Shown here piece after piece: positions 12,818 through 30,111 of a stretch of 41,780 bases of DNA. The translations under genes and the position numbers were made by a program. How positions within the stretch are numbered: the stretch's first letter is position 1; every line of letters begins with the position of its first letter. The stretch comes from an uncultured Rhodobacterales bacterium (GTDB taxonomy: Bacteria; Pseudomonadota; Alphaproteobacteria; Puniceispirillales; GCA-002684695). The stretch lies in NCBI GenBank assembly GCA_964571065.1, contig CAZNBI010000001.1, forward strand, positions 1-41,780. Direction: 5' to 3'. The notes beneath the pieces were generated by a model. It saw nothing but the letters and a program-made list of their open reading frames with translations, was not told the DNA's origin and did no database searches.

Positions 12818-12828
12818 TTTTACACCCC

Positions 12829-13362: not shown

Positions 13363-13403
13363 GTGACATTATTTATTATTTTCTTTTTGTTAATTGCAAA
13401 GGA

Positions 13404-14120: not shown

Positions 14121-14183
14121 TGTTAACCCAAAATATTCAACCTAATGCTTTTACGGTCTCGTTTAATATATTATACATAAAAA

Positions 14184-14957: not shown

Positions 14958-14981
14958 CTTAATACAGTAATTATTAAAATA

Positions 14982-15407
14982 ATGAAAAAAGATAAAACTC
15001 AAAATGAATTTATTTTAATAAAAAAATACTCTAACAGAAGATTATATAATTCTTCAAAAAGTAAATATATAAATTTTAAAGAGTTATTTGAGTTAATTAA
15101 AAATAATATAGATTTTAAGATTGAAGATCATAAAACTGGGGAAGATTTAACCCAAGAGATTTTACTTCAAACAATATTTGAATTCAAGAACACAAGTAAA
15201 AATGTATTTACAGTAAGCTTTATAAAGAAACTTTTTTTAATTTTAAACGAAAACAACTCTGATGAAATATCTATATATTTAGAGGAGTGTTTAAAAAAAT
15301 ATAATGACTTTAAGAAGACAAAAAAATTAGATTTTGAAAAGATTAATATTTTAGATTTACAGCTTCAAATTTTAGAATTGAAAAAACAAATTGCTAAAAT
15401 AAATTAA
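14982..15407 (+). CDS. phaR: PhaR-family (PHB/PHA accumulation regulator) DNA-binding protein, short form
   Basis: 141 aa. IKKYSNRRLYNSSKSKYINFKELFELIKNNIDFKIEDHKTGEDLTQEILLQTIFE closely follows the PHB_acc_N signature (KKYxNRRLYDT..S.Y..L.DL). A C-terminal coiled-coil-like segment follows. Confidence 0.7.
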   Translation: MKKDKTQNEFILIKKYSNRRLYNSSKSKYINFKELFELIKNNIDFKIEDHKTGEDLTQEILLQTIFEFKNTSKNVFTVSFIKKLFLILNENNSDEISIYLEECLKKYNDFKKTKKLDFEKINILDLQLQILELKKQIAKIN

Positions 15408-15408
15408 A

Positions 15409-15783
15409 CTAATTTTCACTAGAAGATATTTTGTATCCAACTTCTTCACAATCTCCATATATATCAGGTTTTGAAATACTAACAGACAAGTGAGTTATTT
15501 TATCAAAAGAAATTACATATTTAAAAATTTGATTTGCTAAAGTTTCAACCAAATTAAAATGTTGGCTTTTAGCAATTTCTTTAATCTTTGTATAAACTAA
15601 ATTGTAATTTAAAGTTTCATTTATTTTGTCATTTTTAGGATTTACTGTATCAGAAAGAAGAATTTTTATATTTACAATGACCCTTTGAGGTTTTTCCTTT
15701 TCGTGTTTATAAACACCGATATTACACATAAGTTCTATATTTTTAAAATAAATTTCCTGTTTTTTATTTTCAGATAATCCCAT
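15409..15783 (-). CDS. folB: Dihydroneopterin aldolase
   Basis: The ORF-track start (15846) would overlap the upstream SDR gene by 50 nt. The ATG at 15781-15783 has AGAGGA 4 nt upstream and gives a ~124-aa protein. The FolB pattern is IGVYKHEKEKPQRVIVNIKI (G..xxE....Q). Confidence 0.75.
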   Translation of the reverse strand: MGLSENKKQEIYFKNIELMCNIGVYKHEKEKPQRVIVNIKILLSDTVNPKNDKINETLNYNLVYTKIKEIAKSQHFNLVETLANQIFKYVISFDKITHLSVSISKPDIYGDCEEVGYKISSSEN

Positions 15784-15796
15784 ACTATCCTCTTCT

Positions 15797-16558
15797 CTAT
15801 AAAAAAGTTGCATCTCTTTTTTGAGGTGATAAATGAGCACCACCATCTATTAAAATATTCTCACCTGTAATACTAAGTGTCTTAATCAAGAACTTTACTG
15901 CATTAATTACATCACTTGGATTTGGTCCTTTAAGTAAAGGATTTAATTTTTGGATTCTTTTAAAGTCTTTAGCTCCATGTTCAGGATTAGGTAAAGTAAA
16001 ACCTGGTGCAATCCCATTAACTCTTAGTTTGGGAGCATATGAAAGTGAGGCAACCTTAGTTAATCCCAGCAAAGCAAATTTTGACAATGTATAAGTGTAA
16101 TGATCTGGATTTAAGCCAAATAGTTTTGCATCCAACATATTTATAACATTTCCATTAAACTTTTCATTTAGTTGTTTATTTAAACTTTTCACCAAAAGCG
16201 TAGGAATTTTAAAGTTTGCATGGATATGCTCATCTAAAATATTTTCAGTGAAATCATGGCCTTGGTCATATTTAAAGGCTGAAGCATTATTAATGAGTGT
16301 GAATTGCTGATTTTCAATATCTTCCAAAAAGTTAATAGACTCACCGATTAGATCCATGGCATCATTTTCAGAAGTAATTTCTTTTCTTATGAGATCAATC
16401 TTACCACCATTCTTAATAATCTCATCTTTTGTCTCCAAAGCTTGTTTTTCTGATTTGTTATAATGAAGAACAATATGAAATGACTCTTTTGATAACTCTT
16501 TAGCAATTAAACTACCAAGCCTCTTTCCGCCACCAGTAATTAATACAATATTTTTCAT
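15797..16558 (-). CDS. Short-chain dehydrogenase/reductase, FolM/pteridine-reductase-like
   Basis: 253 aa. The cofactor motif is ITGGGKRLG (TGxxxRxG, the FolM/PTR1 variant rather than TGxxxGxG). The catalytic YTLSK (YxxxK) is present. The gene lies immediately upstream of folB in the same operon. Confidence 0.65.
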   Translation of the reverse strand: MKNIVLITGGGKRLGSLIAKELSKESFHIVLHYNKSEKQALETKDEIIKNGGKIDLIRKEITSENDAMDLIGESINFLEDIENQQFTLINNASAFKYDQGHDFTENILDEHIHANFKIPTLLVKSLNKQLNEKFNGNVINMLDAKLFGLNPDHYTYTLSKFALLGLTKVASLSYAPKLRVNGIAPGFTLPNPEHGAKDFKRIQKLNPLLKGPNPSDVINAVKFLIKTLSITGENILIDGGAHLSPQKRDATFL

Positions 16559-17662: not shown

Positions 17663-19438
17663 ATGACAAAGATGACTACTGAAGAAGCTTTTGTAAAAGT
17701 CCTACAAATGAATGGTATAAACCAAGCTTTTGGAATAATCGGTTCAGCTTTCATGCCAATTTCTGATCTTTTTCCAAAAGCAGGTATTACATTTTGGGAC
17801 GTGGCACATGAATGCAACGGCGGATATATTTGCGATGGATATACTAGATCATCTGGCAAAATTGCCATGTGTATAGCACAAAATGGGCCTGGAATTACAA
17901 ACTTTGTTACTGCTATAAAAACCGCATACTGGAATCATACTCCAATGTTACTTGTTACACCTCAGGCTGCAAATAAAACAATTGGTCAAGGCGGTTTTCA
18001 AGAGGTAGAGCAAATGGCTTTATTTAAAGATATGGTTTGCTACCAAGAAGAAGTAAGAGACCCATCACGTATTGCTGAAGTTCTTAATAGAGTAATAGAG
18101 AAATCAATACGTGGATCAGCTCCTGCTCAGATTAATGTCCCTAGAGATTATTTTTGTAAAATTGTAGATATTGAAATGCCTAAAGTTGTAAGATTTGCGA
18201 AACCAACTCCAAATCATGATGATATTAGCAAAGCTGTAAGTCTTGTTTCTAGTGCTAAATTCCCAGTTATTTTGTCAGGCGCTGGTGTTGTCTTATCTGA
18301 TGCAATTCCAGAATGTGTAGAATTAGCTGAAAGACTTGATGCTCCTGTTTGTTGCGGATATCAACACAATGACAGTTTTCCTGGAAGTCACCCATTGGCA
18401 GCAGGTCCACTTGGTTACAATGGTTCAAAAGCTGCTATGAATTTAATTTCTAAAGCTGATGTTGTACTTGCATTAGGCACAAGGCTAAATCCATTTTCAA
18501 CTTTACCGTGCTACGGTATAGACTATTGGCCAAACTCAGCGAAAGTTATTCAAGTGGATATTAATCCTGACAGATTAGGTCTGTCTAAAAAAATCACTCT
18601 TGGTATAAGCGCTGACGCCAAGACTACGGTTAAAGAAATCTTAGACAGGTTAGAACCTAATGCTGGAAACACCGATAGGCAAGCTAGAAAGAAAACCATT
18701 GCTGAAACAAAATCTAAGTGGTTACAAGAATTATCTAGTATGGACAATGAAGAAGATGATCCAGGTACAACCTGGAATATTGATGCAAGAACTAGGGAGC
18801 CTGAAAGAATGAGCCCAAGAATGGCTTGGAGGGCAATACAGTCTGCATTACCGCAAAATGCGATTATATCATCCGATATTGGAAATAATTGTGCTATTGG
18901 GAATGCTTATCCATCTTTTGAAGAAGGAAGGAAGTATTTGGCACCAGGTTTATTTGGCCCCTGTGGGTATGGTTTTCCTGCAATTATTGGCGCAAAAATA
19001 GCTTGTCCAAATGTTCCTGTTGTAGGTTTTGCTGGTGATGGTGCTTTTGGTATTTCAATGAATGAAATGACTTCCTGTGGCAGGGATGACTGGCCAGGAA
19101 TTACTATGGTTATTTTTAGAAATTACCAATGGGGTGCCGAAAAAAGAAATACAACACTCTGGTATCAAAATAATTTTGTTGGCACAGAATTAAATCAAGA
19201 TTTTAGTTATGCTAAAATTGCTGAAGGGTGCGGTTTAAAAGGGGTTCAAGTATGGTCTATGGAAGAACTTACAAATGAGTTAAGGTTATCTTGTGATGAG
19301 CAAAAAAAAGGTATTACTACATTTATTGAAGTTATCCTTAATCAGGAACTTGGTGAGCCTTTTAGAAGGGACGCAATGAAAGCACCTGAAATTGTTGCGG
19401 GCATAAATAAAACAGATATGGCAGAACAAACTTTTTAA
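17663..19438 (+). CDS. xsc: Sulfoacetaldehyde acetyltransferase (ThDP-dependent)
   Basis: 591 aa. The N-terminus TTEEAFVKVLQMNGINQAFGIIGSAFMPISDLFPKAGITFWDVAHE...TAYWNHTPMLLVTPQAANKTIGQGGFQEVEQMALFKDMVCYQEEVRDPSRI follows my recollection of characterised Xsc proteins almost residue for residue. The ThDP motif is GDGAFGISMNE...N. A strong SD (AAGGAGG) is present, and pta is adjacent. Confidence 0.9.
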   Translation: MTKMTTEEAFVKVLQMNGINQAFGIIGSAFMPISDLFPKAGITFWDVAHECNGGYICDGYTRSSGKIAMCIAQNGPGITNFVTAIKTAYWNHTPMLLVTPQAANKTIGQGGFQEVEQMALFKDMVCYQEEVRDPSRIAEVLNRVIEKSIRGSAPAQINVPRDYFCKIVDIEMPKVVRFAKPTPNHDDISKAVSLVSSAKFPVILSGAGVVLSDAIPECVELAERLDAPVCCGYQHNDSFPGSHPLAAGPLGYNGSKAAMNLISKADVVLALGTRLNPFSTLPCYGIDYWPNSAKVIQVDINPDRLGLSKKITLGISADAKTTVKEILDRLEPNAGNTDRQARKKTIAETKSKWLQELSSMDNEEDDPGTTWNIDARTREPERMSPRMAWRAIQSALPQNAIISSDIGNNCAIGNAYPSFEEGRKYLAPGLFGPCGYGFPAIIGAKIACPNVPVVGFAGDGAFGISMNEMTSCGRDDWPGITMVIFRNYQWGAEKRNTTLWYQNNFVGTELNQDFSYAKIAEGCGLKGVQVWSMEELTNELRLSCDEQKKGITTFIEVILNQELGEPFRRDAMKAPEIVAGINKTDMAEQTF

Positions 19439-19440
19439 GA

Positions 19441-20319
19441 TCAAATTGAAGCTATTGTCAGAACAGAAGATGAGATAATATCTTCTGTTGTTGCGCCTCG
19501 TGATAAATCACAAACTGGTTTTTTAAAACCCTGTAAAAATGGACCAATTGATCTAAATTTCCCTAAACTTTGACACAATTTATAAGCAATATTTCCAGCA
19601 TCTAATGATGGGAAAATCATAACATTAATTCTATCATCATAATGAATACCTTTTCTTTGAGCTATCTCTTTATTGATTGCTGCATCACCCTGAATGGGTC
19701 CGTACAAGTCAAATCCATCTGACTTTAAAGTATTATATACATTTCTTATCATCTTTACACTCTCACCATCCCCAGATTCTAAAGTTGAGAATGAAAGCAG
19801 AGCTATTTTTGAAAATCCAAGTAATTTATTAGCCATTTCTGAAGCACTAACTGTAATATCTTTAAGTATTTCTTCATTTACATTTATGTTTACAGCACAA
19901 TCTGAAAAAATATATTCTAAGCCTTCTGGTGAAATCATAAGAAAAAAGCTTGAAATATTATTTACCTTGGATGAAATTCCTACTGTTAAAGTTGCTGCTT
20001 CTATAACTCTTTTTGTTGGGTTTATAGCTCCCGCAACCATTACATCAGCTTGACCAAGTGCTAGAATTGACCCAGCAAAATACAAGGGTTTTTTTATTAA
20101 CTTCTCAGCAATGCTTCGTTTAATATGAGGCCTTTGAACTAAAATTGTAGATACATGTTCTGGCGTTATTTGTTTTTCGTCTAACCATACAATTTGTGCA
20201 AGCTTTTCAGTAGATAAATAACTAGCAGCCTCAAAAATTCTTTTGTCATCTTTCTCAGGGAAAACAATTTTATAGTTTTTCTTCCTTGCGATATCAAACG
20301 CCTTATCTAATACTTGCAT
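19441..20319 (-). CDS. pta: Phosphate acetyltransferase (short form)
   Basis: 292 aa and PTA_PTB family (VMVAGAINPT, LLSFST, DAAI, IGPFLQGFKKPVCDLSRG). It is convergent with xsc with a 2-nt gap. The Xsc/Pta pairing is the classical sulfoacetaldehyde route. Confidence 0.8.
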   Translation of the reverse strand: MQVLDKAFDIARKKNYKIVFPEKDDKRIFEAASYLSTEKLAQIVWLDEKQITPEHVSTILVQRPHIKRSIAEKLIKKPLYFAGSILALGQADVMVAGAINPTKRVIEAATLTVGISSKVNNISSFFLMISPEGLEYIFSDCAVNINVNEEILKDITVSASEMANKLLGFSKIALLSFSTLESGDGESVKMIRNVYNTLKSDGFDLYGPIQGDAAINKEIAQRKGIHYDDRINVMIFPSLDAGNIAYKLCQSLGKFRSIGPFLQGFKKPVCDLSRGATTEDIISSSVLTIASI

Positions 20320-20357
20320 ATATTTTCATTAACTTTATTTATTTTTAGGATAACATA

Positions 20358-21491
20358 ATGAGTTCAGATATTAAAATAAACCGTGGATTAAAAGGTATAT
20401 ATTTTGAACGATCTGGCATTTCTGATATTGATGGTGCGAATGGTAGATTAACCTATAGAGGATATCAAATCAGTGATTTGGCAAAAAATTCAACTTTTGA
20501 AGAAGTTTGTTATCTTTTAATTTATGGAAATTTACCCAATCACAAAGAATTAAATAGTTTCCAAAAAAAATTAATATTATATAGAACCCTTCCAAAGGAA
20601 ATCTATAAAATTATTGAATTAATAAAGAATGGGCATCCTATGGATGTTTTAAGAAGTTGTATTTCAGCATTGCCGTCCCTCATAAAATTGCAATCCAAAT
20701 ATAATAAAGATTTTTTAATAGAGGATGGAATAAAATTAATTAGCCAAATCCCAGTAATTGTCGCAGCACACGAAAGAATTAGAAATAATCTAGAGGCTAT
20801 AACACCAGATCAAAGTTTAAATCATTCAGCAAATTGGCTTTATATGCTTAATGGCGAAAAACCTTCGAAAGAAAATGAAAAATTAACTGATTTAGATTTC
20901 ATGCTTCATGCTGAACATGGCTCAAACGCGTCATCATTTGCAGCAAGAGTTACAATAGGAACAAAGGCAGGATTATACGACGCGTTTGTTACAGCAATCT
21001 CAACACTATCTGGACCAGCACATGGCGGAGCAGCAGAAGATGTTATGAAAATGATTGAGGAAATTGGTGAACCTGAAAATGTTAGAAATTATATAAAATC
21101 AAAAAGGTTAAACAAAGAACCTGTAACTGGTTTTGGTCACAGAGTTTATAGAAAAGAGGATCCTAGAGCAGTTTTTTTAAAAGAAGGGCTCAAAAAATTG
21201 TCCATTGAGAAGAATGAACCAAAATGGTTCAAAATTTTAGAAAATGTTGTATTGGAAATGAAGCCTTATGCTAGACACGGTTTAAATGTGAATGTAGATT
21301 TCTATTCAGGAGCGATCTACAATCTACAAAAAATACCTAAAGATTTATATGTTCCTATTTTTTCAATTGGTAGAGCACCAGGGTGGGTTGCCCAATGTAT
21401 TGAACAATTTGAAACAAATATATTGATACGACCACTAACTGAATATAATGGACCCAAAAATAGGCAGTTTAAAGATATTTCAGAGCGTTAA
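20358..21491 (+). CDS. Citrate synthase family protein, small (type I/PrpC-like) form
   Basis: 377 aa. Catalytic signatures are intact: [24 protein letters not shown] and NVDFYSG. It is too short for the ~430-aa proteobacterial type II GltA. Citrate versus 2-methylcitrate specificity cannot be decided from sequence. Confidence 0.8.
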
Positions 21492-22939
21492 TTCGTCCAA
21501 GGCAATGAAAAAGTTTTAACATTAGTAAAGCATTTCATTGCTTCCTGAACACCTTCTTTAATACCATTTCCAGAATCTTTAATACCCCCAAAAGGAGACA
21601 TTTCAATTCTGTATCCAGGAACCTCCCAGATATTTACTGTACCAACATCTAAACCAGAAATATATTTTTGAATTCTAAAAAAATTATTTGAACAAACACC
21701 TGCAGATAAACCGTAATTAGTAGAGTTGGAAATTTTTATAGTTTCATCATCATTATCAGGCACTCTAACAATTGGAATAATGGGCCCAAAAGTTTCTTCT
21801 ACAACGAGTTCAGATTTATAGTTAACATTATCAACAACTATGGGTGGAAGTAGAGCACCCTTCCTCTCAGGATGATATAAGATATTAGCTCCGTCTTCGG
21901 CAGATTTTATAACACGATTTTCAAATATCTCTGCAGCATTACTACTAATGACTGTTCCTAAATCAGTTTTATTATTCATGGGATCGCCAAATTTTATTTG
22001 TTTTGCCTTTTCAAGAATAATAGGCACTAATTTGTCAGCAACCTTATTTTGCACCAAAATTCTTTTAACGGCAGTGCATCTTTGTCCAGAATTCTTTGTA
22101 GCTCCACTTACAGCTAACTCAGCTGCTTTATCAAGATCATCTTCAGTTAAGTCATTTAAAACTATCAAGGGATCATTCCCACCAAGTTCTAAAACTTGGC
22201 GCTTATAGCCGGCTTTATTTGCAATAATTTTTCCAACAGGAATCCCACCTGTAAAAGTAATTAGTTCTATATTTGGATTTGTAATAATTTCATTACCTAT
22301 TTCTTCTGGAAGCCCAGTTACTACAGAAAGCATTTCTGGTGGAAGTCCAGCCTCGTAAATTATATCCGCAAGATAAATTGCAGTTAAGGGTGTCAGCTCT
22401 GTTGGTTTAGCTACTATACAATTATTTGTTGCGATTGCAGGTGCTATTTTGTGAGAAATCATATTCAAAGGATGATTAAATGGTGTAATAGCTGAAATAG
22501 ATCGAAGCGGTTCTCTAATTGTAAAAATTTTTCTTGCTTTTCCATGCGGTGTTAAATCACAACTAAATATCTCTCCGTCATCTTGTATGCATAGTTGACC
22601 TGCAAGAGTATAAACATCATAGGCACGTCCTATTTCATACAAAGAGTCATTAATCGAAATACCAAGTTCAGAAGTAATGATTGGAGCTAACTCATCTTTT
22701 CGTTTTTTGATGATTTCTGCAATTTTAAAGAGAATTTGCTGGCGTTCATATCTTGATAGTTTTGATTTATAATTAGCTGCAATTGAAAAAGCTTTTTGAA
22801 CGTTTTCTACTGTTGCAGCTGGAACACTTCCAACAATTTCTTCTGTAAAAGGATACAAGACACTAATTTCGTTTTCAGAGAAAACTGTCTTCCCTGCTAT
22901 TCGCATTCCTTCATTTTTAATAGTAAATTGTTTTTTCAT
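21488..22939 (-). CDS. phnY: Phosphonoacetaldehyde dehydrogenase (aldehyde dehydrogenase family)
   Basis: 483 aa. ALDH motifs ELGGNDP and catalytic Cys (GQRCTAVKR) are present. [10 protein letters not shown] and YEIGRAYDV match my recollection of the PhnY-type subfamily. It is the last gene of a phnW-phnA-phnY operon. Confidence 0.75.
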
Positions 22940-22954
22940 AAAATTTTCACTTCT

Positions 22955-24196
22955 CTAATTAAAGGACGCTTCACATGCATAAAAGAATGCATCATAATTT
23001 TTCAAATCCTTAACCGAACTTAAATTAATTGGTTTATTAACTATAAACGGTACTTTTTGCTCGCTAAGACCCCCATGCGATCTCAAGGGTTCTTTAAGTG
23101 ATTTAAGATCATGATAACTTTTGGTTTTACCTAATGTTATTTTCTCACTTGATGTGATAACAATATCACCTATTCTATCTGACGGTAGGTCAAACCTCTT
23201 TACTGCCTCATCTTTAGAACATATCTGATCAATTCCTTTTAAAGACTTTAATTTTGAAAAAGCTTCGTTATATATTCTTTTCTCATTAAAATAAATAGTA
23301 GCATAGGAACCTAATGCACCATGATGTACAACGTATGGATCTGTTATCGGAAGAATTACATTTGTGCTATTAGTGCCAAATTCTTCATCTAAAAAGTCTT
23401 GAATAAAAACAATTTGTGGATCTCCATTTTTATTGTGCTTTGCGCTCATACCATGATCTGCAGTAATAACCATAGTTACATCAAATTTACTTATTTCTGA
23501 TAAATAATTATCAATCATAGTTAAAAATTTTATAGCCTCTTTATCTTCTGGAGCATATTTGTGTTGTATATAATCAGTAGTTGAAAGATACATTACATCA
23601 GGAAACCATTCTTCTAATAATTTAAGGCCACTAGCAAATACAAATTCAGAGAGTTCTGAGGAATAGACATCTGGAATTGACATATTTAACCATCTTTCTA
23701 CATTATCGATACCATTAGTTTCAAGTGTGGCACTATTAGCTTTTTCTGATGAAAAACACTTTGTATTTAATTCATTAATTGTAAGACCCGCCCCAAGTAA
23801 AGCTCTTAATTTGTCTTTTGCTGTGATAATTCCAATTTTTTTATTTATTTCTTGAAAACTTTTAAATATTGTCGGCGCTCTCAAAAACTTTACGTCATTC
23901 ATCATAACCTCTTGCCCACTGTCTGGATCTAGAAGATAATTGCCGCAAATACCGTGTACAGAAGGAGGGCAACCAGTTACAATTGACATGTTATTAGGAT
24001 TTGTAAATGAAGGAATAACGGAATCAGCAATATTATAAGAACCAATTTCCATAAAATTTTCAATTGTAGGTATGCAATTTTTTTGAAGAGCAATATCTAA
24101 ATATTCAGGATCACAACCATCAATACATATTACAACTATAGGTTTTAGCGGAACCTTATACTGTCTTTTATTTATATTTATATATGTATTTTTCAT
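22955..24196 (-). CDS. phnA: Phosphonoacetate hydrolase (alkaline phosphatase superfamily)
   Basis: 413 aa. Metal-site motifs VVICIDGCDPEYL and TADHGMS are present, with NPP-type architecture. It lies between phnW and phnY. This is not the unrelated small E. coli PhnA. Confidence 0.8.
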   Translation of the reverse strand: MKNTYININKRQYKVPLKPIVVICIDGCDPEYLDIALQKNCIPTIENFMEIGSYNIADSVIPSFTNPNNMSIVTGCPPSVHGICGNYLLDPDSGQEVMMNDVKFLRAPTIFKSFQEINKKIGIITAKDKLRALLGAGLTINELNTKCFSSEKANSATLETNGIDNVERWLNMSIPDVYSSELSEFVFASGLKLLEEWFPDVMYLSTTDYIQHKYAPEDKEAIKFLTMIDNYLSEISKFDVTMVITADHGMSAKHNKNGDPQIVFIQDFLDEEFGTNSTNVILPITDPYVVHHGALGSYATIYFNEKRIYNEAFSKLKSLKGIDQICSKDEAVKRFDLPSDRIGDIVITSSEKITLGKTKSYHDLKSLKEPLRSHGGLSEQKVPFIVNKPINLSSVKDLKNYDAFFYACEASFN

Positions 24197-24218
24197 AGAT
24201 TTATTAAAATAATTATTT

Positions 24219-25406
24219 TTAAAAACTATTTAATTTTTCCCTTTCAGCAATTATTGCATTTTTAGGAATAGCTGATTTTACATTCATCTCTGAAAGTGAA
24301 ACTTTAACAGCTTTTAAAACCTTTCTCATTATGTTGTTATCAATTTGGCCAATACAACCTATCCTAAAAGTATCAGCAACAGTAAGTTTACCAGGATATA
24401 TTATAAAATTTTGATTTTTCATTAAATTATAAAAGATTTCAAAATTAAAATTTTCATCAGCTGGATATAAAAAAGATACAATTATAGGAGAAATCCATTT
24501 GTCAGATAACAATGTTTCAAAGCCTAAATCTCTCATTCCTTCAACAAGAATATTTTTATTTGCCTCGTAGCGATTTAATCTTCCTATAACACCGCCTTCA
24601 GATGCGTGTTGATTCAAAGCAGATAAAAAACCTAAAATAGTATGTGTTGGCGGAGTAAATCTCCACTGGCCTTTTTCCTCCATATATTTCCATTGGTCAT
24701 ATAGATCAAGAGATAAAGAATGACTATTATTTTTTGATTTTTCTAAAACTGATTTTTTAGTTAAAACAAAACCAAAACCAGGAACACCTTCAATACATTT
24801 ATTTGCAGAAGAAACAAGAGCATCAAATTCAATTTCAGCACAATCTATTGGAATTGCTCCAAAAGCTGACATACTGTCAATAAGTAATGACCTATTAAAA
24901 GATTTTACTATTTTTGATATTGTTTTTATTGGATTCAAAATACCTGAACTAGTTTCACAATGAATTACAATAACGTGGCTAATATATGGGTCTTGCCCTA
25001 ATTTTTTTTCAAGTAGCTCAGGGTCAGGTGGTAAAAAATCCCCCATATCAATAATATCATTCTCTCTTCCTAAATAATTCAAAATTGTTGAGCATCTTTT
25101 TCCATAAGAACCATTACTTAAAACCAAAGCTTTATTTTTTTTTGGCACAAAAGTACCTAACATTGCCTCTACAGAAAAAGTTCCACTTCCTTGCATTGGT
25201 ATTGAAATATATGAGTCTGAATTTTTGATCTTATTTATATTTGAAGTTTGCATTAATATATTGACTAATTTTTCTCTTATTTCGGAAGTAATTTTCTTAA
25301 AATCACTATCCCAAGATCCAATATCCTTTAACATTGCTTCTTTTGTAAGTTTTGAGGTAGTTAATGGACCAGGTGTAAGAAGATATTTATCTAAGTTTTT
25401 AGTCAT
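24219..25406 (-). CDS. phnW: 2-aminoethylphosphonate--pyruvate transaminase
   Basis: 395 aa. Has the N-terminal LLTPGPLTTS and the PLP-lysine context SSANKCIEGVPGFGF, both hallmark PhnW strings. Confidence 0.9.
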   Translation of the reverse strand: MTKNLDKYLLTPGPLTTSKLTKEAMLKDIGSWDSDFKKITSEIREKLVNILMQTSNINKIKNSDSYISIPMQGSGTFSVEAMLGTFVPKKNKALVLSNGSYGKRCSTILNYLGRENDIIDMGDFLPPDPELLEKKLGQDPYISHVIVIHCETSSGILNPIKTISKIVKSFNRSLLIDSMSAFGAIPIDCAEIEFDALVSSANKCIEGVPGFGFVLTKKSVLEKSKNNSHSLSLDLYDQWKYMEEKGQWRFTPPTHTILGFLSALNQHASEGGVIGRLNRYEANKNILVEGMRDLGFETLLSDKWISPIIVSFLYPADENFNFEIFYNLMKNQNFIIYPGKLTVADTFRIGCIGQIDNNIMRKVLKAVKVSLSEMNVKSAIPKNAIIAEREKLNSF

Positions 25407-25589
25407 AAAATTTCAGTTAAAAACAATATTTGCATTAAAAATTTTCAAAAGATAACATAAATTTATTACAAAATTTAGATTTTTTCTATTACCATATCAA
25501 AAATCATAATTTAAAATTTTGTAAGTTTTTTATTGTAATTTAATGCAGTTATGTTCACACTTAAATAAATTATGAATGGGAGGAAACTA
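25407..25589. promoter_or_regulatory. Divergent control region between phnW and the ABC importer (largest intergenic spacer in the window)
   Basis: A 183-nt AT-rich spacer between divergently transcribed operons, so both promoters must lie here. GGAGG sits 5 nt before the ATG at 25590. I could not confidently assign a -35/-10 pair or an operator. Confidence 0.35.
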
Positions 25590-26759
25590 ATGAGTAAAAT
25601 TAAAAACTCTTCACACCAAACACTTAAGGCTGTGAAGACCTTTAACCGAAGAACACTCCTTAAAAGAGGCGCAGCACTTACAGCTTTTGCAAGTGTAGCA
25701 CCTTTATACGTTAAAAATGCTTTCGCTGCTACCAGTGGGCAGGTTAACGTTTTAATGTGGGGTGAATATTTACCTGATTCTGTTATTGCTGATTTTAAAG
25801 CAAAAACAGGTATCACCGTCAACCATACAAAAATTGGTGATAATGGTGAAATTATAGCAAAAATGAAAGCTGGCGGCGGAGCTGGATACGATCTTGCTAG
25901 TCCAACAAACATGAGAGCACTTCAATGGGAAAATCTAGGTGTTTTAGCGCCATTTGATATGAACAAAATCTCAAATCTAGGAAATGTTAATCCTGGAATG
26001 GTTGCTGTTGGAGAAAGAGACTGGAACTTTGGAGGAAAAGGTTCTCATTGGGTACCACAACTTTGGGGTACTGAATCTATTTCTTGGAGAACTGATAAGT
26101 GGACACCTGATGGTCTTCCAAGCTTTGGGGACATTTGGGAACCAAATCCTGGTATTGACGGAGCTTTCATGATGGGAAGAACATATTCCATGATGACTGG
26201 ATGTGGTATTTGGATGCATCACCAAGGAAAAATGGATTTTTGGTCATCTTACAAAGACGAAGATACAATGAGGAAGAATTGGCAAACAATAACTGATTAT
26301 TGTATCTCTAAGAAAGCAAATCTTGTTAAGTTTTGGTCAGGTGCAGACCCACAAAAACAAGGTTTCACTTCAGATGGTGTGGTTGTTGGACAAACTTGGG
26401 ATGGCCCAATTGTATCAATGATGAAAGCTGGGGAACCAGTTGCATATCAAACAACAGATGAAGGAGCACTGGCATGGGTTGATGGTATTACATTATCAGC
26501 TAAAGCTGAAAATATTGATGAGGCTTATGAATTAATCAACTATAGTTTCACTCCTGAAGTTGGAGGGATGACTATTAATGAAATTGGTTATAATTCTGCT
26601 GTTATTGGTGCTTCGGATTTTTATTCAGATGCAACCAAGGCAATTTCACAAGCTGTTTACCCAGGCGATACAGCATCTAAGTTAAACCCATGGCCACCAG
26701 AACCACCATGGTATGCAGACGCTAGAGCTGAATATGCTAATAAGTTTGAAACAGCATAG
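25590..26759 (+). CDS. ABC transporter periplasmic substrate-binding protein, PotD/PotF/PhnS family (probable 2-aminoethylphosphonate or similar small amine)
   Basis: The ORF-track start is 25572. The ATG at 25590 has GGAGG at optimal spacing. The N-terminus has a twin-arginine-like signal (FNRRTLLKRGAALTAFASVAPLYVKNAFA|A). The mature part is a Trp/Gly-rich SBP_bac_1/PotD-like fold. Gene order SBP-ATPase-permease-permease matches phnSTUV. Confidence 0.8.
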   Translation: MSKIKNSSHQTLKAVKTFNRRTLLKRGAALTAFASVAPLYVKNAFAATSGQVNVLMWGEYLPDSVIADFKAKTGITVNHTKIGDNGEIIAKMKAGGGAGYDLASPTNMRALQWENLGVLAPFDMNKISNLGNVNPGMVAVGERDWNFGGKGSHWVPQLWGTESISWRTDKWTPDGLPSFGDIWEPNPGIDGAFMMGRTYSMMTGCGIWMHHQGKMDFWSSYKDEDTMRKNWQTITDYCISKKANLVKFWSGADPQKQGFTSDGVVVGQTWDGPIVSMMKAGEPVAYQTTDEGALAWVDGITLSAKAENIDEAYELINYSFTPEVGGMTINEIGYNSAVIGASDFYSDATKAISQAVYPGDTASKLNPWPPEPPWYADARAEYANKFETA

Positions 26760-26779
26760 ATAGTTTGAAAATTTTAATT

Positions 26780-26808
26780 AAAAGCGCTCATTTTGGGCGC
26801 TTTTTTTT
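26780..26808 (+). terminator. Rho-independent terminator/attenuator between the SBP and ATPase genes
   Basis: AAAAGCGC (26780-26787), a 9-nt loop TCATTTTGG, then GCGCTTTT followed by more T (T8 run at 26801-26808). It starts 21 nt after the SBP stop codon. Confidence 0.7.
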
Positions 26809-26854
26809 ATAGTTTTTGAAATTATATTTGGTAAAGTAATTTTGGGGGAAAATT

Positions 26855-27964
26855 ATGAGTGCTGACGTCGAACTTCAAAATATTTCTGTTACTTTTGGAA
26901 ATTTTTATGCCGCAAAAAATGTGAATGTGAAGATTAACGAAGGTGAATTTTTTAGTTTTTTAGGTCCCTCAGGATGTGGAAAAACCACAATACTTCGAGC
27001 CATATCGGGTTTTCTTGATCCTTCAGAAGGAAAAGTTTTAATTGGCGGCAAAGATATGGGAGGTATAGGCCCTAATAAAAGACCAACCTCACTAATTTTT
27101 CAAAACCTTGCTTTATTTCCGTTAATGTCAGTGGCAGAAAATATAGCATTTTCACTTGAAGTAAGAGGTGTTGATAAAATTGAAAGAAGAAAAAGGGCAG
27201 ACGAATTATTAGAACTTATAGCATTATCTGGCCAAGGTGATAAAAAAGTTCATGAGTTATCAGGAGGACAAAAACAAAGAGTAGCAATAGCTAGAGCATT
27301 AGCTATAGAGCCACAAGTTTTACTTTTAGATGAGCCACTATCTGCTTTAGATTTAAAATTACGTCAAAAAATGAGAACTGAGCTAAGGGCTATTCAAAAA
27401 AGTGTTGGGATCACTTTTATTTATATAACTCATGATCAAGGTGAGGCTCTAACAATGTCTGATAGAGTAGCTGTTATGAACGAGGGAGAATTAGAACAAG
27501 TTGGACAAAGTAATGATGTCTATAATTTTCCTCAAACACCATTTGTAGCTACTTTTGTAGGGGAAAATAATGCTTTTCACTGCAAAGTTATTTCAACTGA
27601 AAAAGATTTTGTGAAAGTAGATTTTGATGGCGTACATTTTTTTGCAAAAGCAGGTAGTGATAATAAAAAAAACCATAACTTCAAAAAGGGTCAAGAAGTA
27701 ATTTTATTTATAAGACCAGAATCAATTTTTATTAGAGATAAGTCGAATAAATTTGAAAATAATTTTTCAGCAAAACTAAAAACAATAGAGTTTGAGGGCA
27801 ATTTAAAAAATATATACTTAAATCTTAACTCAAAAATGGATGTCAGATTTAGCGTTCCAAATGCAGTTGATACGAGTAATCTTTCTTTAAATAAAGAAGT
27901 TGATTTAACTTTCTCTTCTAGTAAAGCAGTTGTTCTTCCAAGTGGTCCATTAGCAGTCGATTAA
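26855..27964 (+). CDS. ABC transporter ATP-binding protein (PotA/PhnT type)
   Basis: 369 aa. Has Walker A GPSGCGKTT, the Q-loop, the signature LSGGQKQRVAIARAL, Walker B LLLDEPLSALD and the H-loop ITHDQ. The C-terminal ~120 aa form a TOBE-like regulatory domain. Confidence 0.9.
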   Translation: MSADVELQNISVTFGNFYAAKNVNVKINEGEFFSFLGPSGCGKTTILRAISGFLDPSEGKVLIGGKDMGGIGPNKRPTSLIFQNLALFPLMSVAENIAFSLEVRGVDKIERRKRADELLELIALSGQGDKKVHELSGGQKQRVAIARALAIEPQVLLLDEPLSALDLKLRQKMRTELRAIQKSVGITFIYITHDQGEALTMSDRVAVMNEGELEQVGQSNDVYNFPQTPFVATFVGENNAFHCKVISTEKDFVKVDFDGVHFFAKAGSDNKKNHNFKKGQEVILFIRPESIFIRDKSNKFENNFSAKLKTIEFEGNLKNIYLNLNSKMDVRFSVPNAVDTSNLSLNKEVDLTFSSSKAVVLPSGPLAVD

Positions 27965-27973
27965 AGTAAAAGA

Positions 27974-28885
27974 ATGAAATATTTTTTTGATAAAAACGGC
28001 CCTCTTATTTCAACTTATTTTTTGATTTCAATATTATTTTGGATAGTTTTTTTAATTATAATTCCCCAATTATATATGTTGGATTTGTCCTTCAGGCCGA
28101 ATTTACCGCCATTGCTAAGAGGTGGTCCTGATGATGTGCATACTTTAGTACATTATAAACATTTTATTTTTGGTTCTGAAACGAGCCAGGATAAATTTAA
28201 TTATGTTGATATTGGAGTATTCTTTAATACCATATTTACAGCTATTTTGGTAACAGTAATTAATCTGTGTTTCTGTTATCCTATAGCATTTTATATGGCA
28301 AAAGTAGCCAACCCAAGTACTTCTCGCTTACTAATTATATCCCTTATAATTCCATTTTGGATCAATGAGCTGTTACGCTCATTTGCATTAAGGATTTTAT
28401 TTGCAGGAGAAGGAGTAATAAATAATGTCCTATTAGGTACAGGCCTAATAGATACAGGTATTAACTTTATTGCTCAAGATGTTGCATTATATACAGGTCT
28501 TACCTATGCATATATCCTACTAATGATATTCCCTCTATATAATGCAATTGAAAGTTTAGATTCTAATCAACTTGAAGCTGCAAAAGATTTAGGATCATCT
28601 ACAATTAGGACACATTGGAGAATTGTTATCCCCCACGCAAAAGCTGGAATTGCATCTGGTTGTACGATGGTTTTTATGCTTACGGCAGGGGCATTAGCCA
28701 CTCCAGTAGTCTTAAGTAGTCCTAATACTTACTGGTTTACTCAGCTTATTTATCAATGGTTTAATATGAATGATAATTGGTCTAGAGGCTCAGCATACTC
28801 AATTTTATTACTAACAATTTCGGTAACATTTGTATTGCTAATGATGAGAATATTCAAAGTTAAAATAGGTGAGATAATCAGATGA
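27974..28885 (+). CDS. ABC transporter permease (PotB/PhnU type)
   Basis: 303 aa, multi-span, with the EAA loop (LEAAKDLGSSTIRTHWRIVIPHAK). Its stop overlaps the next start (ATGA at 28882-28885). Confidence 0.85.
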   Translation: MKYFFDKNGPLISTYFLISILFWIVFLIIIPQLYMLDLSFRPNLPPLLRGGPDDVHTLVHYKHFIFGSETSQDKFNYVDIGVFFNTIFTAILVTVINLCFCYPIAFYMAKVANPSTSRLLIISLIIPFWINELLRSFALRILFAGEGVINNVLLGTGLIDTGINFIAQDVALYTGLTYAYILLMIFPLYNAIESLDSNQLEAAKDLGSSTIRTHWRIVIPHAKAGIASGCTMVFMLTAGALATPVVLSSPNTYWFTQLIYQWFNMNDNWSRGSAYSILLLTISVTFVLLMMRIFKVKIGEIIR

Positions 28886-30111
28886 AGTCTGGTCATTTAA
28901 TGAATGCCTTACTAGGAATATATATTTTTATATTTTTTACATATTTATTTGGCCCACTTCTAATAATGAGTGTAACAGCTTTTAACTCTGCTGAGTTTCC
29001 TTCAATTACTCCTTGGGAATGTTTTAGCTGGAGATGGTTTAATGAAGGCAAAATTGCTTACGATGGACAAAAGCTTGCTGGTCTTGCGACCGACTGGAGG
29101 CTTCATGATGGTTTTATTTCAAGTCTCATTATTGGCATTGGTGTTGTCATTTTGTCAGTACCTATTGGACTTGCTGCATCAATAGTTTTAACTCAAGTAC
29201 ACAGTAGATTAAGAACAATTTTTTACTCTATATCGATTATGCCTGTTCTATTTCCTGGAGTTATTATAGGTATTTCTACCGTTGTGCTTTGGGATAGAAT
29301 AGCGACGATCGGTGGAGAGGGTTTTATATCTGATTTGGGGCGTAATGGAATTTTTCTAACAATTCTTGGTCAAACATGTTTTATTTCAACATACTGCTTT
29401 CTTATATTTGTTGCAAGATTACAAAGATTTGATCAAACCCAAGAGGAGGCAGCACTTGATCTGGGTGCAACACAAACACAAGTATTTTTTAAAATACTAA
29501 TTCCTTACTTAATGCCAGCTATTGCTTCTTCAGCAGTTATTGCATTCTTAGCTTCTTTTGAGAATTATAATACTACTGTTTTTAGTATTCTATCAGATCA
29601 AACATTGACTACTGTTATAGCTTCAAAGGTTCGACTTGGAATCAGTCCGGCTATTAGTGCTTTAGCGCTTGTAATTATTTTATTAACTCTAATGTTGGCA
29701 ATTGCCTATGAAGTCATAAGAAGAAGAGAAGATAAAAAGAAAGAAGAAAGACAAAATAGATTATTGTTTGAGGAAACTAAAGATAGCAGACTAAAAAAAC
29801 ATAATAAAAAAACTTTTAAATTACCTCGGTCAATATTTTTATTTTTATTGATAATTGTTTTAGGAGGCTTTGGATTGAACGAATTAGCTAAAAATGGTTT
29901 GTATGGAAATGAATGTGTAAAAGCAGCTGAAACAGCTAAAAAATCAAAATTTTCAGACCAATTAAAATTACTTCAGCAAAACGTTAATACTGTTGATGAA
30001 AATACACTTAAAGGAGGCACTTTGGGTGGAACCAATGATTATAATAATATTTTTGCTGATCCTAATCTATTCAAAAACTTTGGAGGTTTTGATAACAAAA
30101 CTGAAAAGTAA
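28882..30111 (+). CDS. ABC transporter permease (PotC/PhnV type) with a ~130-aa C-terminal extension
   Basis: 409 aa. The core is about residues 1-275 with the EAA loop EEAALDLGATQTQVFFKILIPY. A charged linker follows (RRREDKKKEERQNR), then one extra predicted TM helix (SIFLFLLIIVLGGFGL) and a ~75-aa hydrophilic tail. Confidence 0.85.
   Translation: MKSGHLMNALLGIYIFIFFTYLFGPLLIMSVTAFNSAEFPSITPWECFSWRWFNEGKIAYDGQKLAGLATDWRLHDGFISSLIIGIGVVILSVPIGLAASIVLTQVHSRLRTIFYSISIMPVLFPGVIIGISTVVLWDRIATIGGEGFISDLGRNGIFLTILGQTCFISTYCFLIFVARLQRFDQTQEEAALDLGATQTQVFFKILIPYLMPAIASSAVIAFLASFENYNTTVFSILSDQTLTTVIASKVRLGISPAISALALVIILLTLMLAIAYEVIRRREDKKKEERQNRLLFEETKDSRLKKHNKKTFKLPRSIFLFLLIIVLGGFGLNELAKNGLYGNECVKAAETAKKSKFSDQLKLLQQNVNTVDENTLKGGTLGGTNDYNNIFADPNLFKNFGGFDNKTEK

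What the first reader, a model, noticed from the sequence alone, without database searches (positions are those of the whole stretch)
17663..25406. Side-by-side C2 sulfonate and C2 phosphonate catabolic modules with only one aminotransferase
xsc and pta process sulfoacetaldehyde (to acetyl phosphate plus sulfite, then acetyl-CoA). They lie within 2 kb of phnY-phnA-phnW, which takes 2-aminoethylphosphonate (2-AEP) through phosphonoacetaldehyde and phosphonoacetate to acetate plus Pi.

Taurine and 2-AEP are isosteric (H2N-CH2-CH2-X). Both routes begin with a pyruvate-dependent transamination to the X-acetaldehyde. In the whole 41.8-kb window the only class V aminotransferase of that type is phnW. 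No taurine:pyruvate aminotransferase (tpa) or taurine dehydrogenase gene accompanies xsc.

This raises two possibilities:
- PhnW, and perhaps the adjacent ABC importer, serves both substrates.
- Sulfoacetaldehyde arrives from another precursor, such as isethionate or sulfoacetate.

The arrangement looks like a C2-onate hub feeding acetyl units to the neighbouring citrate synthase paralog.
Basis: inference. Interest (0 to 1): 0.6.

Follow-up and report, generated by a model that had tools for sequence, protein, structure and literature searches.

The report
Sulfonate and phosphonate modules, swappable importer
The genes are real, but the sulfonate module (xsc-pta-citrate synthase) does not depend on the phosphonate aminotransferase PhnW; the more interesting part is the neighbouring importer, an uncharacterised and abundant marine transporter type that probably carries small amino-acid-like molecules such as 2-AEP and perhaps taurine.

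Summary
All gene calls hold: xsc, pta, a small citrate synthase, phnY-phnA-phnW and a divergent ABC importer. The "only one aminotransferase" puzzle largely dissolves.

- **Wrong class.** Tpa is a class III enzyme, not class V. The 70%-complete genome has nine class III aminotransferases, six of ω-transaminase type. One (contig C41) is 65% identical to the aminotransferase inside complete Tpa-Ald-importer-MocR regulator-Xsc clusters elsewhere.
- **Natural experiment.** Three congeners keep the whole layout. A fourth (86% complete) keeps xsc-pta-CS but has no phnW anywhere, and carries a TauABC-like importer in the same slot. So Xsc does not need PhnW.
- **Importer.** It is neither AepX nor a true polyamine binder. 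It keeps PotD's aromatic box and one amine site, lacks the distal acidic pair, and has two family-conserved arginines. Of 18 relatives across Alphaproteobacteria, none lies near phn genes, nine lie near ω-amino-acid:pyruvate aminotransferases and three near xsc. An 87%-identical copy, seen on hundreds of SAR11 contigs, sits 3 kb from Tpa-Xsc-Ald.

Verdict: two independent modules side by side. PhnW dual use is not supported. A shared importer is plausible but untested.

The parts
17663..19438 (+). xsc, sulfoacetaldehyde acetyltransferase (ThDP enzyme): sulfoacetaldehyde + Pi -> acetyl phosphate + sulfite
   Evidence: TIGR03457 913 bits > 676 cut-off; NF005713 1003 bits. It is the only copy above cut-off in the genome. 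87-99% identical in five congeners.
19441..20319 (-). pta-like phosphate acetyltransferase (short, 292 aa), convergent with xsc and divergent from CS
   Evidence: PF01515 228 bits. Best NCBIfam hits are Pta models, all below cut-off (240 < 310; 210 < 311). Single copy in the genome. Conserved next to xsc in the genus.
20358..21491 (+). accessory small (type II-like) citrate synthase / 2-methylcitrate synthase family protein
   Evidence: PF00285 375 bits. TIGR01800 407 < 421. Two other paralogs in the genome at 37% and 34% identity. The pta/CS pair also lies near xsc in L030 and L063, and CS alone in L031.
21488..22939 (-). phnY, phosphonoacetaldehyde dehydrogenase; first gene of the swappable cassette. 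Its stop codon overlaps the CS stop codon.
   Evidence: TIGR03250 763 bits > 636; SafD model only 350 < 700. Absent from the same slot in G001.
22955..24196 (-). phnA, phosphonoacetate hydrolase
   Evidence: TIGR02335 483 bits > 408.
24219..25406 (-). phnW, 2-aminoethylphosphonate:pyruvate aminotransferase (class V)
   Evidence: NF010006 529 > 296; TIGR02326 473 > 401. 363 bits to PDB 7E7G and 341 bits to 1M32. Present in only 4 of 8 congeners.
25572..26759 (+). Tat-exported PotD/PotF-family solute-binding protein of an uncharacterised clade (two conserved arginines; predicted ligand has one cationic and one anionic group)
   Evidence: PF13416 only; PotD 97 bits < 582 cut-off. Twin-arginine signal FNRRTLLKRG...AFA/A. 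Pocket mapping and family conservation. 1125 homolog clusters at E <= 1e-40, many in Pelagibacteraceae.
26780..26804 (+). strong hairpin plus T-run between the SBP and ATPase genes (probable attenuating terminator giving excess SBP transcript)
   Evidence: 11-bp stem, 5 GC pairs, T-run; the best terminator-like site in the region.
26855..27964 (+). ABC importer ATPase with TOBE domain
   Evidence: PF00005 and PF08402. Best NCBIfam hits PhnT2 343 < 458 and PotA 339 < 482, which do not discriminate.
27974..30111 (+). two ABC importer permeases (27974-28885 and 28882-30111)
   Evidence: PotB/PotH-like and PotI/PotC-like, below cut-offs. Syntenic with the SBP in every family locus that carries the importer genes.

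Best explanation
Two separate catabolic modules lie side by side.

Module 1 (xsc, pta, accessory citrate synthase; 17663-21491) converts sulfoacetaldehyde to acetyl phosphate plus sulfite, then to acetyl-CoA, then to citrate. It is the unit conserved in this genus.

Module 2 (phnY-phnA-phnW plus a divergently transcribed, Tat-exported ABC importer; 21488-30111) converts imported 2-AEP to phosphonoacetaldehyde, phosphonoacetate, and then acetate plus phosphate. It is a swappable cassette sitting in a variable slot between CS and a CoA-transferase gene. One congener has a TauABC-like importer in that slot and no phnW at all.

Sulfoacetaldehyde for Xsc is therefore made by unlinked enzymes, not by PhnW. 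The most likely source is a class III omega-amino-acid:pyruvate aminotransferase acting as Tpa; the best candidate is on contig C41. A ComDE-like decarboxylase acting on sulfopyruvate is a second possibility.

The importer is not AepX and not a true polyamine binder. It belongs to an uncharacterised PotD-family clade whose pocket looks built for H3N+-(CH2)n-X- type ligands. In this locus it most plausibly imports 2-AEP for PhnW, and it may also bring in taurine or a related amino- or guanidino-sulfonate.

Shown: gene identities, synteny, the cassette swap, the family contexts and residue conservation. Inferred: every substrate assignment for the importer, the Tpa role of C41 and the role of ComDE.
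For: - **Gene identities.**
- **Synteny in the genus.** G006, G002 and G007 keep xsc-pta-CS-phnYAW-importer. G001 keeps the same flanks and xsc-pta-CS, but has a three-gene NitT/TauT-type transporter in the slot; its best hits are TauA, TauB and TauC.
- **phnW distribution.** phnW occurs in G000, G002, G006 and G007 only. G001 (86% complete) and G004 have xsc without it.
- **Aminotransferase repertoire.** Nine PF00202 genes, six of omega-TA type. C41 scores 757 bits on the AptA model. It is 65-66% identical to the aminotransferase in AT3-Ald...SBP-ABC-MocR-Xsc clusters (L015, L017, L168, L172, L174). Its nearest solved relatives are beta-alanine:pyruvate and omega-amino-acid:pyruvate transaminases.
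- **Importer family.** PF13416, not PF13343; AepX is PF13343 according to PMC8316502.
- **Importer pocket.** PotD's W34, E36, Y37, W229, W255, D257 and Y293 equivalents are kept. D168 and E171 are replaced by T204 and G212. R203 is invariant (27/27) and R115 is present in 26/27 family members, and PotD has neither.
- **Importer contexts.** 0/18 relatives have phn neighbours; 9/18 have omega-TA neighbours; 3/18 have xsc plus ald; MocR regulators sit next to the importer. Nine of nine long SAR11 contigs show Aminotran_3-(DAO/GCV_T)-Xsc-MTase-AlaDH-MetE-like-SBP(87%)-ABC-arginase family.
- **Mutual exclusion.** The TauA-like and PotD-type SBPs never occur in the same genome of the genus.
- **ComDE-like pair.** Core to the genus.
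Against: - No substrate was measured; all transporter and aminotransferase specificities are inferred.
- The C41 ortholog is a core gene. It is present even in two assemblies without xsc, so it does not co-vary with xsc.
- No alanine dehydrogenase and no MocR/TauR regulator were found in this 70%-complete genome.
- In a second SAR116 genus the 89-91%-identical importer has neither xsc nor phn genes within 10 kb. It sits with an M24 hydrolase and a GS-like ligase plus an ALDH.
- The SAR11 operon ends in an agmatinase-family gene. That points to a guanidino or polyamine-type substrate rather than taurine or 2-AEP.
- The cassette swap rests on one genome (G001), whose sequence has many ambiguous bases. 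Its transporter scores are below the Tau equivalog cut-offs.
- The ComDE-like scores are below cut-off and the neighbourhood is uninformative.
Confidence: 0.6

Rival explanations
1. Shared entry point at the aminotransferase. PhnW transaminates both 2-AEP and taurine, so a single class V enzyme feeds PhnY/PhnA and Xsc.
For: Taurine and 2-AEP are isosteric, and xsc lies 4.8 kb from phnW. No class III aminotransferase lies on contig C1. No Ald or TauR was found in the assembly.
Against: G001 and G004 have xsc but no phnW; in G001 the xsc-pta-CS locus is fully resolved. Six omega-TAs are available elsewhere in the genome. PhnW here is a canonical AEP transaminase. Published work describes PhnW's scope as very narrow: N-methyl-AEP and R-HAEP are poorly processed or not processed (PMC10590968, PMC8154272). 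Outside this genus, xsc clusters use class III AptA/Tpa-type enzymes, not PhnW.
Confidence: 0.07
2. The adjacency is incidental. The importer is dedicated to 2-AEP. Xsc is fed only from other sulfonates, for example sulfopyruvate via ComDE, or isethionate or sulfoacetate. The two modules merely share a variable catabolic region of the chromosome.
For: The phnYAW-importer block comes and goes as one unit. Its divergent promoter region lies between phnW and the SBP gene. A ComDE-like pair is core to the genus. SAR116 MAGs are reported to carry several comDE copies (bioRxiv 10.1101/2024.12.10.627767). The window holds many unrelated catabolic genes, including a sulfatase, tauD, a CoA-transferase and an ACAD.
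Against: None of 18 importer relatives, nor the 86-91% identical copies in SAR11 and a second SAR116 genus, is next to phn genes. A 2-AEP-only specificity would then have to be peculiar to this genus, even though all mapped pocket positions are identical. The slot holds a taurine-type importer in G001.
Confidence: 0.2
3. The importer serves neither module. It takes up a polyamine or guanidino compound such as agmatine, 4-guanidinobutyrate or 3-guanidinopropionate, as its PotD-family membership and the SAR11 agmatinase-family neighbour suggest.
For: Best family hits are PotD and PotF. The SAR11 operon ends in an arginase-family gene that passes the NCBIfam agmatinase cut-offs. The second SAR116 genus has an M24 creatinase/ectoine-hydrolase-like gene and a GS-like ligase (PuuA family among its hits) plus an ALDH nearby. 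GbtABCD/PuuLMNO offer a precedent, found together with speB (PMC5320631).
Against: The acidic pair that binds the distal amine in PotD is lost and two arginines are conserved, which argues against a dication. No amidinohydrolase lies in the window's cassette. A guanidino-acid substrate would still fit the cation-plus-anion ligand class of the main explanation.
Confidence: 0.13

Closest known systems
Classical taurine dissimilation cluster (TauR; TauABC or TauKLM; Tpa-Ald or TauXY; Xsc; Pta; TauE), as described for Rhodobacter, Paracoccus and Ruegeria and summarised in PMC5320631
   Same: Xsc and a Pta-like enzyme are adjacent. A TauE-family exporter lies in the same window (37707-38468; PF01925, 74.5 bits). 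Acetyl phosphate is converted to acetyl-CoA.
   Different: No Tpa, Ald, TauXY, TauR or TauABC is linked to xsc here. pta is short and convergent with xsc. An accessory citrate synthase is part of the conserved unit. In one congener a TauABC-like importer fills the neighbouring slot.
aepXVW-phnWAY operons for 2-AEP mineralisation (Murphy et al. 2021, PMC8316502)
   Same: A complete PhnW-PhnY-PhnA route next to a dedicated ABC importer, and a marine heterotroph.
   Different: The SBP is PF13416 (PotD/PotF-like), not PF13343. There are two separate permease genes. There is no LysR-type AepR. Relatives of the importer are never found next to phn genes outside this genus.
PotABCD/PotFGHI polyamine importers (PotD 1POT, PotF 1A99)
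   Same: Four-component architecture, an SBP fold-family match at about 25% identity, and a conserved aromatic box with an Asp257-equivalent amine site.
   Different: The PotD D168/E171 acidic pair is lost. Two arginines are conserved across the clade. The SBP has a Tat signal. Neighbours are omega-amino-acid aminotransferases and MocR regulators rather than polyamine genes.
Predicted GbtABCD GABA ABC transporter of MocR (GabR) regulons (Suvorova & Rodionov 2016, PMC5320631)
   Same: An ABC system homologous to a putative putrescine transporter and predicted to carry an omega-amino acid. It is linked to MocR regulators and class III aminotransferases, and sometimes to speB.
   Different: No orthology test was possible because no sequence was available here. 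GbtABCD was predicted for GABA in beta- and gammaproteobacteria. It was not linked to xsc or phn genes and has not been tested biochemically.
SAR11_1336 ('PotD'), the SAR11 glycine betaine/DMSP-binding protein (Clifton et al. 2024, PMC11485210)
   Same: A marine PotD-annotated SBP whose real ligands are not polyamines.
   Different: Not an ortholog. Four ordinary Pelagibacter genomes have no match to the window's SBP. The SAG that has the 87% copy also has a separate PotD-like protein at 27% identity.

Membership tests
Xsc (sulfoacetaldehyde acetyltransferase, TIGR03457) | Full-length match above the curated equivalog cut-off, with three ThDP-enzyme domains | tested here: met
   913 bits > 676.4; PF02776, PF00205 and PF02775 all present.
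Pta (phosphate acetyltransferase, TIGR00651 / PF01515) | PTA_PTB domain and a score above the Pta equivalog cut-off | tested here: inconclusive
   PF01515 228 bits > 24, but TIGR00651 210 < 311 and PRK09653 240 < 310. The protein is 292 aa and its N-terminal part is divergent.
PhnW-PhnY-PhnA phosphonoacetate route | All three enzymes above their equivalog cut-offs and clustered | tested here: met
   PhnW 473 > 401, PhnY 763 > 636, PhnA 483 > 408. The genes are contiguous on the minus strand. PhnW scores 363 bits to PDB 7E7G.
AepXVW 2-AEP importer | SBP in pfam13343, distinct from PhnS (PMC8316502) | tested here: not met
   Only PF13416 (66.9 bits) and a weak PF01547 hit. No PF13343 hit at E <= 0.001.
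AepXVW 2-AEP importer | Located adjacent to phnWAY or phnWX | tested here: met
   The SBP gene starts 165 bp from the phnW start and is divergent from it.
AepXVW 2-AEP importer | LysR-type AepR regulator upstream (typical in Alphaproteobacteria) | tested here: not met
   No regulator gene lies between 15.4 and 32.5 kb.
PotD/PotF polyamine-binding proteins | Score above the PotD or PotF equivalog cut-off | tested here: not met
   PotD 97 < 582; PotF 74 < 636.
PotD/PotF polyamine-binding proteins | Acidic residues binding the distal amine (PotD Asp168 and Glu171), in addition to the aromatic box | tested here: not met
   D168 -> T204 and E171 -> G212. The aromatic box and the D257 equivalent are kept. 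The PotD residue list comes from memory of the PotD structure papers; each position was verified as the stated letter in the 1POT alignment.
Tpa (taurine:pyruvate aminotransferase), candidate on contig C41 | Class III (PF00202) omega-amino-acid:pyruvate aminotransferase | tested here: met
   PF00202 313 bits; AptA model 757 > 500; nearest PDB entries 4B98 and 3A8U.
Tpa (taurine:pyruvate aminotransferase), candidate on contig C41 | Genomic linkage or co-occurrence with xsc, ald or tauR | tested here: not met
   Its neighbours are an Ldh_2-family dehydrogenase and F420-related genes. Its orthologs occur in 7 of 8 congeners, including two without xsc.
Tpa (taurine:pyruvate aminotransferase), candidate on contig C41 | Taurine:pyruvate activity | not testable with these tools
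   Needs an enzyme assay. The only support is 65-66% identity to aminotransferases inside AT3-Ald-importer-MocR-Xsc clusters.
TauABC (NitT/TauT) taurine importer, cassette in congener G001 | TauA, TauB and TauC above their equivalog cut-offs | tested here: inconclusive
   These are the best hits, but all are below cut-off: TauA 91 < 304, TauB 272 < 357, TauC 177 < 342. The sequence contains ambiguous bases.
ComDE sulfopyruvate decarboxylase (contig C168) | Split alpha and beta subunits above the TIGR03845 and TIGR03846 cut-offs | tested here: inconclusive
   The split layout is present. In the congener, alpha scores 107 < 148 and beta 137 < 221.5. The phosphonopyruvate decarboxylase model scores only slightly lower. 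The context is uninformative.

The most novel reading that the evidence does not exclude
The Tat-exported PotD-family importer at 25572-30111 represents an uncharacterised transporter family that is abundant in the ocean. It is present in a SAR11 subclade on hundreds of contigs and in two SAR116 genera. Its binding protein recognises small zwitterions of the H3N+/guanidinium-CH2-CH2-X- type: taurine, 2-AEP, and possibly beta-alanine, hypotaurine or taurocyamine. On this reading it is both a third kind of taurine importer and a new kind of 2-AEP importer, and in this genus it replaces TauABC beside xsc while also feeding PhnW.
Probability: 0.3. Interest if true: 0.7.

Novelty: new variant of a known kind. 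Interest (0 to 1): 0.42.

Why it matters
Taurine and 2-AEP are major dissolved organic sulfur, phosphorus and nitrogen currencies in the surface ocean. Budgets inferred from metagenomes depend on recognising the right transporters. If this PotD-annotated importer carries amino-sulfonates or amino-phosphonates, "polyamine uptake" would be over-counted in meta-omic surveys, and taurine or 2-AEP uptake by SAR11 and SAR116 under-counted. Published work already showed one such misassignment for SAR11_1336 (PMC11485210). The locus also shows how streamlined genomes swap importer cassettes next to a fixed catabolic core.

Tried and rejected
- **SAR11_1336 orthology.** Rejected. Four ordinary Pelagibacter genomes have no match to the SBP, and the SAG with the 87% copy has a separate 27% PotD-like gene.
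- **AepX or PhnS2 identity.** Rejected on family grounds.
- **Phyletic profile of C41 against xsc.** Uninformative, because C41 is a core gene.
- **Using G003 and G005 (no xsc) as negative controls.** Abandoned. The HAD flank gene is also missing from those assemblies, so the whole locus is unassembled or absent.
- **Context of the ComDE-like pair.** Only a thiolase, an MttB-family protein and Sdh genes; no sulfonate genes.
- **Context of C41.** The neighbouring Ldh_2 enzyme's best hit is L-sulfolactate dehydrogenase, but at 198 bits against a 500-bit cut-off; the F420-related genes gave no taurine link.
- **Riboswitches and other Rfam families.** None in the window or in three related loci.
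- **Repeats or mobility marks at the cassette boundaries.** Only AT-rich chance matches. Promoter-like sites were no more frequent than in shuffled sequence.
- **PDB search for a solved zwitterion-binding relative.** Nothing closer than PotD or PotF.
- **Supplement of PMC11485210.** Not held as text.
- **Literature on PhnW activity with taurine.** No direct measurement found in the library.
- **Not tested.** tauXY, iseJ and sauST, because no models or reference sequences were at hand.

Full report
**Observation**

The window is contig C1 of a low-GC (about 31%) assembly of 1.87 Mb in 445 contigs. The assembly is 70.5% complete with 1.9% contamination. An earlier scan note calls it SAR116; I did not verify that.

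All genes in the finding are real:

| Gene | Coordinates | Evidence |
|---|---|---|
| xsc | 17663-19438 (+) | TIGR03457 913 bits, cut-off 676 |
| pta-like | 19441-20319 (-) | 292 aa; PF01515 positive; below the Pta equivalog cut-off |
| citrate synthase | 20358-21491 (+) | 377 aa; PF00285 positive; TIGR01800 407 < 421 |
| phnY | 21488-22939 (-) | TIGR03250 763, cut-off 636 |
| phnA | 22955-24196 (-) | TIGR02335 483, cut-off 408 |
| phnW | 24219-25406 (-) | TIGR02326 473, cut-off 401 |
| ABC importer | 25572-30111 (+) | SBP, ATPase and two permeases, divergent from phnW |

PhnW is closest to the solved AEP:pyruvate transaminases 7E7G and 1M32. No class III aminotransferase lies on this contig.

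Its framing needs one correction. Tpa, the classical taurine:pyruvate aminotransferase, is a class III (PF00202) ω-transaminase, not a class V enzyme like PhnW. PMC5320631 groups Tpa with GabT, OapT and DoeD.

**Is there really only one aminotransferase?**

Within the window, yes. Within the genome, no.

- The assembly carries nine PF00202 genes. Six are ω-transaminase types of 441-466 aa.
- To find which resembles a real Tpa, I fetched 80 xsc loci from named genomes and scored their neighbours.
- Where an aminotransferase sits next to xsc (Dongia, Sneathiellales, Thalassospiraceae, some Pelagibacteraceae), it is most like the enzyme on contig C41.
- C41 scores 757 bits on the AptA ω-aminotransferase model, against a cut-off of 500. 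Its nearest solved relatives are β-alanine:pyruvate and ω-amino-acid:pyruvate transaminases.
- C41 is 65-66% identical to the aminotransferase inside clusters that read as complete taurine regulons: AT3-Ald...SBP-ATPase-permease-permease-MocR regulator-Xsc. TauR is a MocR-type regulator (PMC5320631).

C41 is a core gene of the genus, found in 7 of 8 genomes at 93-100% identity, including two assemblies without xsc. So it is a candidate Tpa, not a demonstrated one.

**A natural experiment in the genus**

The family holds eight genomes, all in one genus. Six have xsc.

- G006, G002 and G007 keep the whole order HAD-xsc-pta-CS-phnY-phnA-phnW-SBP-ATPase-permeases-CoA transferase-ACAD.
- G001 (86% complete) keeps the same flanks and xsc-pta-CS, but lacks phnYAW and this importer.
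- In the slot between CS and the CoA-transferase gene, G001 has three co-directional genes. Their best hits are TauA, TauB and TauC (91, 272 and 177 bits). All are below the equivalog cut-offs, and the sequence contains ambiguous bases.
- phnW is absent from the whole of G001 and from G004, which also has xsc-pta.
- The TauA-like SBP occurs only in G001. The PotD-type SBP occurs only in G000, G002, G006 and G007.

So xsc-pta-CS is the conserved unit, phnYAW plus importer is a swappable cassette, and Xsc persists without PhnW. This is the main evidence against PhnW as a shared aminotransferase. Published work also describes PhnW's substrate scope as narrow (PMC10590968, PMC8154272). I found no direct measurement with taurine.

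G003 and G005 lack xsc, but they also lack the HAD flank gene, so they say nothing.

**The citrate synthase belongs to the sulfonate side**

- The genome has two other CS paralogs at 37% and 34% identity, so this is an accessory copy.
- The divergent pta/CS pair recurs near xsc in two unrelated alphaproteobacterial loci (L030, L063), and CS alone in L031.
- In G001 the CS gene is co-directional with the TauABC-like genes.

PhnA's acetate could join the same pool, but I did not test for AckA or Acs.

**What is the importer?**

- **Not AepX.** AepX is PF13343 (PMC8316502). This SBP hits only PF13416 and, weakly, PotD and PotF.
- **Export and expression.** The SBP has a twin-arginine signal. A strong hairpin follows its gene (26780-26804).
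- **Pocket.** Mapped onto PotD (1POT), it keeps the aromatic box and one amine site: W63, E65, Y66, W276, W302, D304 and Y340. It loses the acidic pair that holds the distal amine (D168→T204, E171→G212).
- **Conserved arginines.** R203 is invariant (27/27) and R115 is present in 26/27 family members spanning 39-100% identity. PotD has neither.
- **Inference.** This fits a ligand with one cationic and one anionic group. It is an inference; no structure places these arginines in the pocket.

**Distribution and context of the importer**

| Lineage | SBP identity | Neighbours |
|---|---|---|
| This genus (4 of 8 genomes) | 95-100% | phnYAW, with xsc 6 kb away |
| Second SAR116 genus | 89-91% | M24 hydrolase; GS-like ligase plus ALDH 3 kb away; no xsc or phn within 10 kb |
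| SAR11 subclade (9 of 9 long contigs) | 87% | Aminotran_3-(optional DAO/FAO_M/GCV_T)-Xsc-methyltransferase-AlaDH-MetE-like-SBP-ABC-arginase-family |
| Class sample, 18 loci | 39-52% | 0 with phnW/A/Y; 9 with a class III ω-TA (8 AptA/Tpa-like); 3 with true xsc plus ald |

- In the order, the SBP occurs in 7 of 192 genomes and 2 of 23 genera.
- In public data it is abundant: 1125 clusters at E ≤ 1e-40, and one 87%-identical Pelagibacteraceae form is seen on 737 contigs.
- It is not the canonical SAR11 PotD (SAR11_1336, a glycine betaine/DMSP binder, PMC11485210). Four ordinary Pelagibacter genomes have no match.
- The three class-sample loci with true xsc all come from one genus. Two of the 18 loci sit on contigs too short to judge.
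- MocR regulators sit beside the importer in both locus types that I annotated.

The family therefore travels with ω-amino-acid:pyruvate aminotransferases, and in three lineages with xsc. It is found with phn genes only in this genus. A predicted but untested precedent is GbtABCD, a putative GABA ABC transporter homologous to a putative putrescine transporter in MocR regulons, sometimes found with speB (PMC5320631).

**Other sources of sulfoacetaldehyde**

A split ComD/ComE-like ThDP decarboxylase is present on C168 and in all eight congeners. It is always below the sulfopyruvate decarboxylase cut-offs, and only slightly above the phosphonopyruvate decarboxylase score. Its neighbourhood in a congener has no sulfonate genes. 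A preprint reports several comDE copies in SAR116 MAGs (10.1101/2024.12.10.627767). This route remains possible but unproven. Genes for tauXY, isethionate and sulfoacetate were not testable here.

**Model**

- **Shown.** Two modules lie side by side. The first is fixed and the second is swappable. The importer family is linked to class III aminotransferases and xsc elsewhere.
- **Inferred.**
  - 2-AEP enters through the importer and is converted by PhnW, PhnY and PhnA to acetate and phosphate.
  - Sulfoacetaldehyde is made by an unlinked class III enzyme from taurine, or by the ComDE-like enzyme from sulfopyruvate.
[quoted passage not shown] Pta then makes acetyl-CoA, which the accessory CS condenses to citrate.
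  - A TauE-family protein in the window (37707-38468) could export sulfite.
  - The importer may bring in taurine-type substrates as well. That would explain why it alternates with a TauABC-like system in the same slot.

**Limits**

- No activity or binding was measured.
- The genome is incomplete: no Ald or MocR gene was found.
- The swap rests on one congener.
- The arginase-family and M24 neighbours in other lineages point to guanidino substrates.

**Verdict**

The juxtaposition is real and is conserved in four genomes. The apparent single aminotransferase comes from the window's limits and from searching the wrong enzyme class. PhnW dual use is unlikely (about 7%). The importer is the part worth an experiment.

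Noticed in passing
L122, L125, L175-L178 (SAR11 contigs), about 1600-4100 in locus coordinates: An 817-aa DAO/FAO_M/GCV_T enzyme (dimethylglycine- or sarcosine-dehydrogenase-like) is inserted between the class III aminotransferase and xsc in some SAR11 contigs and absent from others. This may mean that N-methylated taurines are demethylated before transamination.
   Followed up: no
own genome contig C41, 1-10505: The AptA-type aminotransferase sits beside an Ldh_2-family dehydrogenase (best hit L-sulfolactate dehydrogenase, 198 bits, below cut-off) and a TIGR03842 F420-dependent LLM oxidoreductase (499 bits). Next comes a run of genes that look by eye like F420/FO biosynthesis genes. F420 metabolism in a streamlined marine alphaproteobacterium would deserve a look.
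   Followed up: partly
window 25572-26759 compared with congeners and SAR11: The SBP is more conserved than its neighbours. It is 95% identical between congeners whose PhnW is 71-79% and whose Xsc is 88% identical, and 86-87% identical to the SAR11 copy. The ATPase and permeases are only 68-77% identical to the SAR11 copies. This suggests recent horizontal exchange or very strong constraint on the binding protein.
   Followed up: partly
window 26780-26804 (+): An 11-bp-stem hairpin with a T-run lies between the SBP and ATPase genes.
   Followed up: no
L183 9885-11438 (congener G002), next to the ComDE-like pair: A non-Pyl MttB-superfamily methyltransferase (TIGR02369, 391 bits, below the 525-bit cut-off) lies divergent from the ComDE-like decarboxylase genes. 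Its substrate is unknown.
   Followed up: no
genome.fa contig C1 beyond 41780: Contig C1 continues past the end of the window: a tblastn hit lies at C1:45125-46495. Gene clusters at the right edge of the window are therefore cut by the window, not by the assembly.
   Followed up: no
L105 (congener G001) 9600-16000: This stretch of the G001 assembly contains many ambiguous bases, which appear as X in the translations. This lowers the family scores of its TauABC-like genes.
   Followed up: no
L021 13566-14612, L122-L126, L160, L179: A 348-aa MetE-like (Meth_synt_2) gene lies directly beside the importer in SAR11. A 52%-identical homolog lies beside the importer in one distant alphaproteobacterium (L160). 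This hints at a methyl-transfer step linked to the imported substrate.
   Followed up: no
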